From Escherichia coli (GTDB lineage Bacteria; Pseudomonadota; Gammaproteobacteria; Enterobacterales; Enterobacteriaceae), in NCBI RefSeq assembly GCF_030013205.1, contig NZ_CP122648.1: 64,000 nucleotides of DNA; one strand, written 5' to 3'. Positions within the stretch are counted from its first letter, which is position 1. Each line of letters opens with the position of its first letter. The position numbers are program-made. This document shows, one piece after another, positions 27,001 to 30,000 of the stretch.

Positions 27001-30000
27001 CGCTATGTATTGCAGCTAGGAGGCGATTTGGCGCAGTGGAGTAGCAACGCGCAGGATCGCTGGCATCTTGGCGTGATGGCAGGCTACGCCAATCAGCACA
27101 GTAATACTCAGAGTAATCGTGTGGGTTATAAATCGGATGGGCGCATCAGCGGTTACAGCGCAGGACTGTACGCGACCTGGTATCAGAACGATGCGAATAA
27201 GACCGGCGCTTATGTTGACAGCTGGGCGCTGTATAACTGGTTTGATAACAGCGTCAGTTCCGATAACCGTTCTGCTGTCGACTATGATTCTCGCGGTGTG
27301 ACGGCCTCTGTTGAGGGTGGGTATACCTTTGAAGCGGGAACATTTAGCGGCAGCGAAGGGACGCTGAATACCTGGTACGTCCAGCCACAGGCGCAAATCA
27401 CCTGGATGGGTGTGAAAGATTCTGACCATACCCGGAAAGACGGAACACGCATTGAAACGGAAGGCGGCGGAAACGTGCAAACGCGACTTGGGGTGAAAAC
27501 CTACCTGAACAGTCATCACCAGCGTGACAATGGTAAACAGCGTGAGTTCCAGCCTTACATTGAAGCGAACTGGATCAACAACAGCAAAGTCTACGCCGTG
27601 AAGATGAATGGTCAAACCGTAAGCCGTGATGGTGCGCGTAATCTCGGTGAAGTACGTACCGGGGTTGAGGCGAAAGTAAATAACAACCTTAGCCTGTGGG
27701 GGAATGTCGGTGTGCAACTAGGTGATAAAGGCTATAGCGATACTCAGGGCATGCTGGGTGTGAAATATAGCTGGTAAACCGTATAAGCCGCATGTCGAAG
27801 ATGCATGCGGCTTAATATTGCCGACTTCAAACGACTTTTAAATCCTCCTTTTTATCCGCGATCGCGGATATCGCAGCGTTTATCCCGTAGAGCGGATAAG
27901 ATGTGTTTCCATATTGACTTTATCCTCACTAAAGGATAAAACTGATAATATCCCCTTGAGCGGATAAATTTGCTGTGGACGTATGACATGATGAGCTTTC
28001 AGAAGATCTATAGCCCAACGCAATTAGCGAATGCAATGAAACTGGTTCGTCAGCAAAATGGCTGGACGCAGAGCGAGCTGGCGAAAAAAATCGGCATTAA
28101 GCAGGCGACAATTTCCAATTTCGAAAACAACCCTGACAATACCACGCTGACGACATTTTTTAAGATTTTACAGTCGCTTGAACTCTCAATGACGCTATGC
28201 GACACGAAAAATGCCTCGCCAGAATCAACAGAACAGCAAGATCTGGAGTGGTAATGCCTAAACTTGTCACTTGGATGAACAACCAGCGGGTAGGCGAGTT
28301 AACGAAGTTAGCCAATGGCGCGCACACCTTTAAGTATGCACCGGAGTGGTTAGCCAACCGTTATGCCAGACCGTTATCACTTTCGCTGCCATTGCAGAGG
28401 GGGAATATCACCTCTGATGCTGTATTTAACTTCTTCGATAACCTGCTACCCGATAGCCCGATTGTACGTGACCGGATCGTTAAACGTTATCATGCTAAAT
28501 CCAGACAACCGTTTGATTTATTGTCAGAAATAGGGCGAGATAGCGTTGGTGCCGTAACGTTATTACCCGAAAATGAAACCATAACGCGCCCGATAATGGC
28601 ATGGGAACAGCTCACTGAAGCCAGGCTTGAAGAAGTATTAACGGCTTATAAAGCAGATATCCCTCTGGGCATGATTAGAGAAGAAAATGACTTTCGCATC
28701 TCGGTTGCTGGCGCGCAGGAGAAGACAGCGCTGCTCAGAATAGGCAATGACTGGTGCATTCCGAAAGGAATAACGCCGACGACGCACATCATTAAATTAC
28801 CGATTGGCGAAATCAGGCAGCCCAATGCGACGCTCGATCTCAGCCAAAGCGTTGATAATGAGTATTACTGTCTGCTGCTGGCGAAAGAACTTGGGTTGAA
28901 TGTGCCGGACGCAGAAATCATTAAAGCGGGAAATGTGCGCGCGTTAGCGGTCGAACGTTTTGACAGGCGTTGGAATGCTGAGCGAACGGTTTTACTTCGC
29001 TTGCCACAGGAGGATATGTGTCAGACATTCGGTTTACCTTCATCGGTGAAATATGAATCAGATGGAGGCCCAGGCATCGCGCGGATCATGGCTTTTTTGA
29101 TGGGGTCCAGCGAGGCGCTGAAAGATCGCTATGATTTTATGAAGTTTCAGGTGTTCCAGTGGTTGATTGGCGCAACGGATGGCCATGCAAAAAACTTCTC
29201 CGTATTTATTCAGGCTGGCGGCAGTTATCGACTCACGCCATTTTACGACATCATTTCAGCATTTCCGGTATTGGGTGGCGCAGGAATACACATCAGCGAT
29301 CTCAAACTGGCAATGGGGCTTAACGCATCCAAAGGCAAAAAAACGGCAATCGATAAAATTTATCCGCGACATTTTCTGGCGACAGCAAAGGTGCTGAAAT
29401 TTCCGGAAGTGCAGATGCATGAAATCCTGAGTGACTTTGCCAGAATGATTCCGGCAGCACTGGATCATGTGAAGACTTCATTACCGACAGATTTTCCGGA
29501 GAACGTGGTGACGGCAGTTGAAACCAATGTGTTGAGGTTGCATGGACGGTTAAGCCGAGAATACGGTAGTAAGTGAGATATGGGGTTTGGTCGTTGTTAA
29601 TGAGTACGACAATCATGACCGCCAACGACTGGATTCTTCCTTGGTTTATGTTGGTGCGCATAATGTATATTATGTTAAATATGGTGGGTTTGTTCTTAAG
29701 TTCATGTGTTCCGCTCTTTCAGTAGCTTAACTGATGAATCAGTCAGCAGCTTTTGCCGTGCAAGCTACGCGGCGGTTCGTACCAGATTGGCCACCTCCAT
29801 CTCCTGGTTCGCTTTCCCCTCCCCCCGGTAAACCTCACCCAACGTTAATTAATGATGTCAGTATGTGGGCGCTATCCTTGTATGTAAAATCCACTGACGA
29901 TTACGCCCATCTGTGAAAAAAAACTCACAATGCCATTCGATGCATCTCCATACCGAACGAGGCGTTATCGTCTTTATCGCCCCGTAGTGGATATCAGAAA

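What the first reader, a model, noticed from the sequence alone, without database searches (positions are those of the whole stretch)
27853..27966. Four perfectly conserved HipB operator palindromes upstream of hipBA
Four exact TATCC-N8-GGATA sites are visible, with a TTGACT -35-like hexamer among them, consistent with cooperative HipB/HipA-HipB autorepression. This is known biology, but it is unusually clean to read and flags the toxin-antitoxin module that borders the accessory islet.
Basis: partly seen in the sequence, partly recalled or inferred. Interest (0 to 1): 0.3.

Follow-up and report, generated by a model that had tools for sequence, protein, structure and literature searches.

The report
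E. coli hipBA operator-promoter region
This is the well-studied control region of the E. coli hipBA toxin-antitoxin (persistence) operon, with its four HipB repressor binding sites intact, so the finding is correct but ordinary.

Summary
Four exact TATCC-N8-GGATA palindromes lie at 27853-70, 27881-98, 27921-38 and 27949-66, where 0.05 such sites are expected per window. TTGACT lies at 27914-19, and intact hipB (27988-28254) and hipA (28254-29576) follow directly.

The stretch is the E. coli chromosomal hipBA control region. It is found in 5256 of 5426 complete E. coli genomes and aligns base-for-base with K-12, whose operators O1-O4 are the published HipB sites. The window's HipB is 100% identical to the HipB chain of PDB 5K98.

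A published K-12 start site (38-nt leader) maps to A27950. That makes TTGACT the -35, puts O2 in the promoter spacer and puts O1 over +1. The TATAAT-like hexamer between O2 and O1 is therefore not the -10.

All 40 half-site bases are invariant in ten sampled E. coli alleles, while 14 of the other 74 positions vary. Relatives in Klebsiella, Pantoea, Vibrio and a Citrobacter plasmid keep arrays at 27-28 bp pitch.

The differences from K-12 are common polymorphisms:
- a 1-bp T insertion (gaps 10/22/10 instead of 10/21/10);
- TATAAT changed to GATAAT;
- one O1 spacer change;
- no 13-bp IHF-like box upstream of O4.

Downstream of hipA lies a genuine accessory islet, present in about 9% of genomes. 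Verdict: already known, low interest.

The parts
27853..27870 (.). HipB operator O4 (distal), TATCCGCGATCGCGGATA. It is a perfect 18-bp palindrome with a central GATC. It lies at about -97 to -80 from the inferred start site.
   Evidence: Exact match. Identical to K-12. Half-sites are invariant in 10 E. coli alleles.
27881..27898 (.). HipB operator O3, TATCCCGTAGAGCGGATA, at about -69 to -52.
   Evidence: Exact match. Identical to K-12. Only the spacer varies between strains.
27914..27919 (+). -35 hexamer TTGACT, at -36 to -31.
   Evidence: Sequence read. Invariant in 10 alleles. Shimada 2014 lists TTGACT-16-TAAAAC for K-12 hipBA. The position fits the K-12 start site.
27921..27938 (.). HipB operator O2, TATCCTCACTAAAGGATA, at -29 to -12. 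It fills the -35/-10 spacer and overlaps the first bases of the -10.
   Evidence: Exact match. Identical to K-12 and to the O2 half of the published O1O2 oligonucleotide (reverse complement) in PMC3376134.
27937..27943 (+). -10 element. It is either TAAAAC (27937-42, 17-bp spacer here) or, one base over, AAAACT (27938-43, -12 to -7, 18-bp spacer here).
   Evidence: Relaxed hexamer scan. Shimada 2014 assignment. Distance to the start site mapped in K-12. The strict consensus scan found no promoter.
27949..27966 (.). HipB operator O1 (proximal), TATCCCCTTGAGCGGATA, at -1 to +17, covering the start site. The spacer differs by one base from K-12 (CTTAAG changed to CTTGAG).
   Evidence: Exact match. 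Alignment.
27950..27950 (+). Inferred transcription start (A), 38 nt upstream of the hipB ATG.
   Evidence: Transferred by alignment from the K-12 start site at 1590504(-), with a 38-nt 5'UTR (Kim 2012 supplement). There are no indels between O1 and the ATG. Not measured in this strain.
27988..28254 (+). hipB: an 88-aa Xre/Cro-type HTH antitoxin and repressor.
   Evidence: Pfam HTH_3, E = 4.9e-15. 100% identical to PDB 5K98 chain B. 86 of 88 residues identical to K-12 HipB (A73T, N85D).
28254..29576 (+). hipA: a 440-aa Ser/Thr kinase toxin. Its start overlaps the hipB stop by 1 bp (TAATG).
   Evidence: Pfam Couple_hipA plus HipA_C. 430 of 440 residues identical to K-12 HipA, with no change at G22, P86, D88, S150 or D291. 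PDB HipA chains match at E ~1e-294.
27784..27814 (+). Upstream boundary: a 12-bp-stem hairpin just after the stop of the autotransporter gene, probably its terminator. It is not part of the hip control region.
   Evidence: RNA fold of -18.9 kcal/mol. Conserved in strains that carry the autotransporter. Not called by the strict terminator scan because the T run is weak.

Best explanation
The region 27853-27966 is the operator-promoter of the chromosomal E. coli hipBA type II toxin-antitoxin operon.

Layout. A sigma-70 promoter is embedded in an array of four HipB operators. Its -35 is TTGACT (27914-19), its -10 is TAAAAC/AAAACT (27937-43), and its start is at about A27950.

Repression. HipB dimers (Xre/Cro helix-turn-helix) bind each TATCC-N8-GGATA palindrome cooperatively and bend the DNA. 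O2 fills the promoter spacer and O1 covers +1, so occupancy excludes RNA polymerase. O3 and O4 upstream add cooperativity. HipA acts as co-repressor by flanking each HipB dimer. HipA molecules on neighbouring operators, 28 bp centre to centre, dimerise through their N-terminal subdomains, which also occludes the kinase active sites.

Release. When free HipB is degraded by Lon, the promoter is derepressed. Free HipA then phosphorylates glutamyl-tRNA synthetase, which triggers (p)ppGpp synthesis and persistence.

What is shown here: the sites, their arrangement, intact genes, identity to the characterised proteins, and conservation. What is taken from the literature: binding, cooperativity, HipA bridging and the downstream pathway. 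What is inferred: that they operate the same way in this strain.
For: - Site statistics: four exact sites against 0.05 expected per window.
- Identity with K-12: base-for-base alignment with the K-12 hipB upstream region, where all four operators are also exact.
- Published operator facts: the consensus TATCCN8GGATA, four sites, cooperative binding at sub-nM Kd and the O1O2 oligonucleotide sequence are in PMC3376134 and PMC3920265. K-12 spacing of 10/21/10 is in PMC4150777.
- Start site and promoter: the K-12 start site with a 38-nt leader and the TTGACT-16-TAAAAC promoter place O2 and O1 over the core promoter.
- Proteins: HipB is 100% identical to the crystallised HipB of 5K98 and carries HTH_3. 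HipA is 97.7% identical to K-12 HipA, with both HipA domains.
- Variation within E. coli: 0 of 40 half-site positions vary against 14 of 74 other positions in 10 sampled alleles (Fisher p = 0.002). TTGACT and GGATAAAAC are invariant.
- Other genera: arrays of 3-4 palindromes at 27-28 bp pitch lie upstream of hipB in Klebsiella, Pantoea, Vibrio (TACCC-N8-GGGTA) and a Citrobacter plasmid (TAACC-like).
- HipA-HipA occlusion and the high-persister mutations are summarised in PMC7758455 and PMC6581861.
Against: - Nothing in the sequence contradicts this reading.
- Occupancy of the sites and the start site were not measured in this strain.
- The strict consensus promoter scan finds no sigma-70 promoter, because the -10 is weak and its register is ambiguous by one base.
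- The central gap is 22 bp rather than the 21 bp of the crystallised and footprinted K-12 DNA.
- The K-12 IHF-like box is absent, so quantitative behaviour could differ.
- The primary papers (Black 1994; Schumacher 2009 and 2015) were not held in the library. Their content is cited through secondary papers.
Confidence: 0.96

Rival explanations
1. The promoter is placed differently. Under this reading the TATAAT-like hexamer between O2 and O1 (GATAAT at 27944-49; TATAAT in K-12) is the true -10. TTGACT would then not be the -35, and the operators would act mainly downstream of the start.
For: K-12 has a perfect TATAAT at this position. The relaxed scan pairs GATAAT with weak -35-like hexamers such as TTATCC-18.
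Against: TTGACT to GATAAT is 24 bp here and 23 bp in K-12, which is too long for sigma-70. The mapped K-12 start site is the base immediately after TATAAT, which puts the hexamer at -6 to -1. The first T of the hexamer is G in this window and in most sampled strains, so it is not conserved the way a -10 T would be. Shimada 2014 assigns TTGACT-16-TAAAAC.
Confidence: 0.03
2. The palindromes are chance matches or a generic intergenic repeat (for example a REP-like element or sites for another regulator), unrelated to HipB.
For: One further exact site occurs inside a fimbrial usher gene at 41409-26. This shows that isolated matches can occur without any hip context.
Against: Only 0.05 sites are expected per window, yet four lie within 114 bp. 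Their position is fixed directly upstream of hipB in more than 5000 genomes. The half-sites are invariant while spacers vary. The half-site sequence changes together with the HipB/HipA lineage in other genera while the 28-bp pitch is kept. The sequences are identical to oligonucleotides shown to bind HipB.
Confidence: 0.01

Closest known systems
E. coli K-12 hipBA operator-promoter (operators O1-O4; Black et al. 1994; Schumacher et al. 2009 and 2015)
   Same: - Same locus, between the yneO-type autotransporter and hipB.
- Four exact TATCC-N8-GGATA sites, with O2, O3 and O4 identical in sequence.
- Same -35 TTGACT, same GGATAAAAC, and the same 38-nt leader.
- The same hipB-hipA 1-bp overlap.
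- HipB is 98% and HipA 97.7% identical.
   Different: - One extra T between TTGACT and O2. The central gap is 22 bp instead of 21, and the promoter spacer is 1 bp longer.
- T changed to G at -6 (TATAAT to GATAAT).
- A changed to G in the O1 spacer, and C changed to T just after O1.
- The 13-bp K-12 segment carrying the IHF-like ATCAACGCCTTA upstream of O4 is absent.

All of these are shared with many other E. coli. About half of an evenly spaced sample of genomes carries the 151-bp form.
HipB operator arrays of other Gammaproteobacteria (Klebsiella pneumoniae, Pantoea agglomerans, Vibrio vulnificus, Citrobacter plasmid pE33_001)
   Same: Three or four 5+8+5 palindromes lie directly upstream of hipB, with a -35-like TTGAC(A/T) embedded in the array. 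The outer pairs are 27-28 bp centre to centre, as for O4-O3 and O2-O1 here.
   Different: These arrays keep 27-28 bp throughout, whereas E. coli has 39/40 bp in the middle, about one extra helical turn. The half-site is TACCC in Vibrio and TAACC-like on the Citrobacter plasmid. Some sites carry one mismatch, whereas all four are exact here.
Shewanella oneidensis hipBA operators (Wen et al. 2014, PMC4150777)
   Same: Four palindromic operators bound by an Xre-type HipB, with HipA as part of the repressing complex.
   Different: The operator is GTGTA-N6-TACAC with 34-bp separations. One operator lies inside hipB. The HipA-HipB-DNA geometry differs, and HipA contacts the DNA.

Membership tests
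E. coli-type hipBA operator-promoter (HipB operators O1-O4) | Palindromic operators matching TATCC-N8-GGATA, four copies | tested here: met
   Four exact matches at 27853-27966, against 0.05 expected per window. The consensus is taken from PMC3376134 and PMC3920265.
E. coli-type hipBA operator-promoter (HipB operators O1-O4) | Located immediately upstream of a hipB-hipA operon, with hipB first and a 1-bp overlap between the genes | tested here: met
   hipB is at 27988-28254 and hipA at 28254-29576, with a TAATG overlap. The 1-bp overlap is described for E. coli in PMC4150777.
E. coli-type hipBA operator-promoter (HipB operators O1-O4) | Operator separations of 10, 21 and 10 bp as in K-12 | tested here: not met
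   The separations here are 10, 22 and 10 bp, because of a 1-bp T insertion. This is a common natural allele and does not bear on identity of the locus.
E. coli-type hipBA operator-promoter (HipB operators O1-O4) | Operators overlap the core promoter and the transcription start | tested here: met
   This is met by homology only. The K-12 start site maps to 27950 inside O1. O2 lies between TTGACT and the -10. It was not measured in this strain.
E. coli-type hipBA operator-promoter (HipB operators O1-O4) | Sites are bound cooperatively by HipB, with HipA as co-repressor | not testable with these tools
   This needs EMSA, footprinting or ChIP. Supporting evidence: HipB is identical to the DNA-bound crystallised protein (5K98), and O2 is identical to the published binding oligonucleotide.
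HipB antitoxin (Xre/Cro HTH repressor) | Small protein with an HTH_3 domain that is orthologous to E. coli HipB, including the C-terminal Trp88 | tested here: met
   HTH_3 at E = 4.9e-15. 100% identity to 5K98_B and E = 2.4e-53 to 2WIU/3DNV HipB. The protein ends in ...LEW.
HipA kinase toxin | Couple_hipA plus HipA_C domains in a full-length protein orthologous to K-12 HipA | tested here: met
   Both Pfam domains are present. The protein is 440 aa with 10 substitutions relative to K-12, none at S150, G22, D291, P86 or D88. PDB HipA chains match at E ~1e-294.

The most novel reading that the evidence does not exclude
The common natural indels in this control region might set strain-specific hipBA expression level or noise, and hence persister frequency. 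There are two such indels. One is the 1-bp T insertion, which changes both the -35/-10 spacer and the O3-O2 phasing (39 to 40 bp). The other is the presence or absence of the 13-bp IHF-like box upstream of O4. If this reading is true, this window carries a regulatory allele that is functionally distinct from the K-12 reference on which all structural and biochemical work was done.
Probability: 0.15. Interest if true: 0.35.

Novelty: already known. Interest (0 to 1): 0.1.

Why it matters
hipBA is the founding persistence locus, and its four-operator autoregulation is textbook biology. Finding it intact here serves mainly as an annotation anchor. It identifies the window as an E. coli chromosome in the lsrK-yneO-hipBA-ydeT region. 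It also marks the boundary between a near-universal module, present in 97% of complete genomes, and a rare redox-gene islet present in 9%.

The only mildly useful new points are comparative:
- The half-sites are strictly invariant across E. coli, while the spacers and linkers drift.
- The 28-bp operator pitch is conserved across genera, and E. coli alone carries about one extra helical turn in the middle.
- The K-12 reference allele (21-bp gap, TATAAT, IHF-like box) is only one of several common alleles.

Tried and rejected
- The strict sigma-70 and terminator consensus scan of 27700-28300 found nothing. The promoter had to be placed from literature start-site data and a relaxed scan instead.
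- The primary papers could not be read. Black 1994 (PMC205607), Schumacher 2009 (PMC2764309), Schumacher 2015 (PMC7502270 / DOI) and Thomason 2015 (PMC4288677) are not held. Secondary sources and the Kim 2012 supplement were used.
- The TATAAT-like hexamer as -10 was considered and rejected.
- The fifth exact site at 41409-26 was considered as a distal HipB target. It is intragenic, in a fimbrial usher gene. About 0.05 such sites are expected per window, which extrapolates to a few per genome, so chance is the simplest reading and it was not pursued.
- An IHF consensus was looked for in the window's upstream region. None was found between 27700 and 28000 apart from a loose match inside the upstream coding sequence.
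- The expensive genome- and metagenome-wide scans were not run. The plasmid collection, which also holds some mislabelled chromosomes, already gave relatives from five genera.

Full report
**1. Observation**

Reading 27600-28300 and searching for TATCCNNNNNNNNGGATA gives exact matches at four positions:
- 27853-27870 (TATCCGCGATCGCGGATA)
- 27881-27898 (TATCCCGTAGAGCGGATA)
- 27921-27938 (TATCCTCACTAAAGGATA)
- 27949-27966 (TATCCCCTTGAGCGGATA)

A fifth exact site lies at 41409-41426. Shuffles that preserve dinucleotide content give 0.05 sites per window on average, and never more than one. The cluster of four is therefore not chance.

The gaps between sites are 10, 22 and 10 bp, which gives centre-to-centre distances of 28, 40 and 28 bp. 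TTGACT lies at 27914-27919. Three of the four sites extend to TTATCC...GGATAA.

**2. What it is**

Directly downstream lie two ORFs. The first has 88 codons (27988-28254). The second has 440 codons (28254-29576) and overlaps the first by one base.

Pfam assigns HTH_3 to the first, and Couple_hipA plus HipA_C to the second. The 88-aa protein is 100% identical to the HipB chain of PDB 5K98, an E. coli HipA-HipB-DNA structure, and near-identical to 2WIU/3DNV/3HZI HipB. The 440-aa protein matches PDB HipA chains at E ~1e-294.

Against K-12 MG1655:
- HipB differs at 2 of 88 residues (A73T, N85D).
- HipA differs at 10 of 440 residues: S35N, I104L, D107N, V110I, H112R, K119Q, T343A, R382K, N405H and S424T.
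- None of these are the known high-persister positions G22, P86, D88 or D291, as listed in PMC7758455.

A megablast of the 151-bp control region finds it in 5256 of 5426 complete E. coli genomes, always at hipB. The window is therefore an E. coli chromosome, in the order lsrK, autotransporter (yneO homologue), hipB, hipA.

**3. Comparison with the characterised K-12 region**

The alignment shows O4, O3 and O2 identical in sequence. K-12 also has four exact sites.

The published literature agrees on the operator facts. HipB binds cooperatively to four operators of consensus TATCCN8GGATA. The O1O2 oligonucleotide used for binding (Kd 0.6 nM) is the reverse complement of the K-12 equivalent of 27920-27967 (PMC3376134; PMC3920265). 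K-12 separations are 10, 21 and 10 bp (PMC4150777).

The window differs from K-12 in five ways:
- one extra T between TTGACT and O2, which makes the central gap 22 bp;
- G instead of T at 27944 (K-12 TATAAT becomes GATAAT);
- A changed to G in the O1 spacer;
- C changed to T at 27969;
- absence of a 13-bp K-12 segment just upstream of O4, which contains ATCAACGCCTTA. This is the only match to the IHF core consensus in the K-12 region, and nothing equivalent is found in the window.

[quoted passage not shown] I could not read Black et al. 1994 to confirm that it is this element.

**4. Promoter**

The strict consensus scan finds no promoter.

The supplement of Kim et al. 2012 (PMC3415461) lists a hipB start site in K-12 at 1590504(-), with 25 reads and a 38-nt 5'UTR. 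The upstream sequence ends ...GGATAAAACTTATAATA. There are no indels between O1 and the ATG, so this start maps to A27950, the second base of O1.

Relative to that start:
- TTGACT is at -36 to -31.
- TAAAAC is at -13 to -8, and AAAACT at -12 to -7.
- O2 spans -29 to -12, and O1 spans -1 to +17.
- O3 spans -69 to -52, and O4 spans -97 to -80.

Shimada et al. 2014 list TTGACT-16-TAAAAC as the hipBA promoter under an RNA polymerase holoenzyme binding peak.

The TATAAT/GATAAT hexamer sits at -6 to -1, lies 23-24 bp from TTGACT, and is not the -10.

The extra T lengthens the promoter spacer by one base. That is 16 to 17 bp if the -10 is TAAAAC, or 17 to 18 bp if it is AAAACT. Its effect on promoter strength cannot be predicted from sequence.

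**5. Conservation**

Ten E. coli alleles were taken from evenly spaced positions in the hit list and aligned. All 40 half-site positions are invariant, while 14 of the other 74 positions in 27853-27966 vary (Fisher p = 0.002). TTGACT and GGATAAAAC are also invariant.

In the evenly spaced list, about half of the full-length matches are 151 bp (the form with the extra T) and about half are 150 bp (K-12-like). Both spacer alleles are therefore common. The 13-bp IHF-like segment is present in three of the ten alleles.

Outside E. coli, a tblastn of HipA against the plasmid collection, which also contains some mislabelled chromosomes, gave relatives at 45-72% identity. Upstream of their hipB genes:
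- Klebsiella pneumoniae has four sites (three exact, one with one mismatch) at a uniform 28-bp pitch.
- Pantoea agglomerans has three sites at a 28-bp pitch.
- Vibrio vulnificus has four exact TACCC-N8-GGGTA sites at a 28-bp pitch.
- A Citrobacter IncA/IncP plasmid has four TAACC-like sites at a 27-bp pitch.
- An Enterobacter plasmid has two exact sites, preceded by TTGACTT exactly as in the window.

The 28-bp pitch and the 5+8+5 geometry are thus conserved, while the half-site sequence changes with the protein lineage. That pattern is expected of real repressor sites. E. coli is unusual only in having 39/40 bp in the middle, about one extra helical turn. The remark about the extra turn is my inference.

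**6. Mechanism**

From the literature:
- HipB dimers bind each operator and bend it by about 70 degrees.
- HipA flanks each HipB dimer as co-repressor.
- HipA molecules on adjacent operators dimerise through their N-terminal subdomains, which blocks the active sites. High-persister mutations map to that interface.
- Free HipB is degraded by Lon.
- Free HipA phosphorylates GltX, which leads to (p)ppGpp synthesis and persistence.

These points come from PMC3376134, PMC3920265, PMC7758455 and PMC6581861.

From the positions worked out above, O1 and O2 occlude the core promoter, and O3 and O4 add cooperative binding upstream. None of this was measured for this strain. It is inferred from near-identity of the proteins and the DNA.

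**7. The 'accessory islet' remark**

Homology with K-12 ends at 29683, 107 bp after the hipA stop, and resumes at 37656. The intervening genes are a LysR regulator, aldo/keto reductases, an NAD(P)H oxidoreductase, a quinol monooxygenase and a carboxymuconolactone decarboxylase-family gene, by the annotation of a near-identical genome.

The 6-kb core, 30900-36900, is present in only 488 of 5426 genomes. The remark is therefore correct.

**8. Verdict**

This is the already-known hipBA operator-promoter in a common non-K-12 allele. Interest is low. The residual novelty lies only in the possibility that the natural indel alleles differ functionally.

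Noticed in passing
window 41409-41426 (inside ORF 39976-42627, +): A fifth exact TATCC-N8-GGATA (TATCCAGGTCGCAGGATA) lies inside a full-length fimbrial usher gene (ydeT homologue). The same site exists in K-12. There it sits 8 bp from the junction of a K-12 deletion (window 38121-41400 is absent) that truncates ydeT, so in K-12 the site is upstream of the truncated gene. It is probably chance, since about 0.05 sites are expected per window. HipB occupancy is unknown.
   Followed up: partly
window 29684-37655: This segment is absent from K-12, and its 6-kb core (30900-36900) occurs in only 488 of 5426 complete E. coli genomes. It carries redox/detoxification-type genes. The LysR regulator at its hipA-proximal end (29974-30871, minus strand) is split into two overlapping ORFs here, whereas it is an intact 900-bp gene in strain CFSAN018748.
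   Followed up: partly
window 23378/23379 and ORF 23482-27777: The autotransporter gene upstream of hipB (K-12 pseudogene yneO; 'ECSE_1600 family autotransporter') lacks 626 bp that are present in K-12. This leaves a 1431-aa ORF, whereas intact alleles in other strains are about 5.4 kb long.
   Followed up: no
window about 27833-27836 (upstream of O4): K-12 and some other strains carry 13 extra bases here (GCGCATCAACGCC...) that hold the only IHF-core-like match (ATCAACGCCTTA) in the control region. The window and 7 of the 10 sampled alleles lack this segment. B2-type strains have entirely different sequence upstream of this point.
   Followed up: partly
window 27853-27870: O4 is a perfect 18-bp palindrome whose centre is a GATC (Dam methylation site, 27860-27863). 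The GATC is kept in all ten sampled alleles, even where the neighbouring spacer base varies.
   Followed up: no
L012 (Enterobacter hormaechei plasmid NZ_CP132233.1) 2064-2137: This plasmid has two operators upstream of hipB. A second array of three TATCC-N8-GGATA sites (2064, 2092 with one mismatch, and 2120, at a 28-bp pitch) lies just downstream of hipA, immediately before an ATG. This suggests a second HipB-controlled gene or a rearranged operator array.
   Followed up: no
L005 (EPEC E2348/69-derived genome NZ_LT903847.1), O2: O2 has a 1-bp deletion in its spacer (TATCCTCACT-AAGGATA, N7). This should misalign the half-sites. It is the only sampled allele with a broken operator geometry.
   Followed up: no
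E. coli O157:H7 genomes (hits H87-H90): Only the first ~50 bases of the query (O4 and part of O3) are retained, and they lie next to a feature annotated as a HipA-family fragment. This implies a deletion that removes O2, O1, hipB and part of hipA in this lineage.
   Followed up: no
L001/L003 (strain CFSAN018748) versus window 28531-28809 and 31574-33595: This genome has an operator region identical to the window's. It lacks 279 bp inside hipA, which is annotated as frameshifted, and lacks 2 kb of the islet. An intact operator array is therefore not always accompanied by an intact toxin gene.
   Followed up: partly
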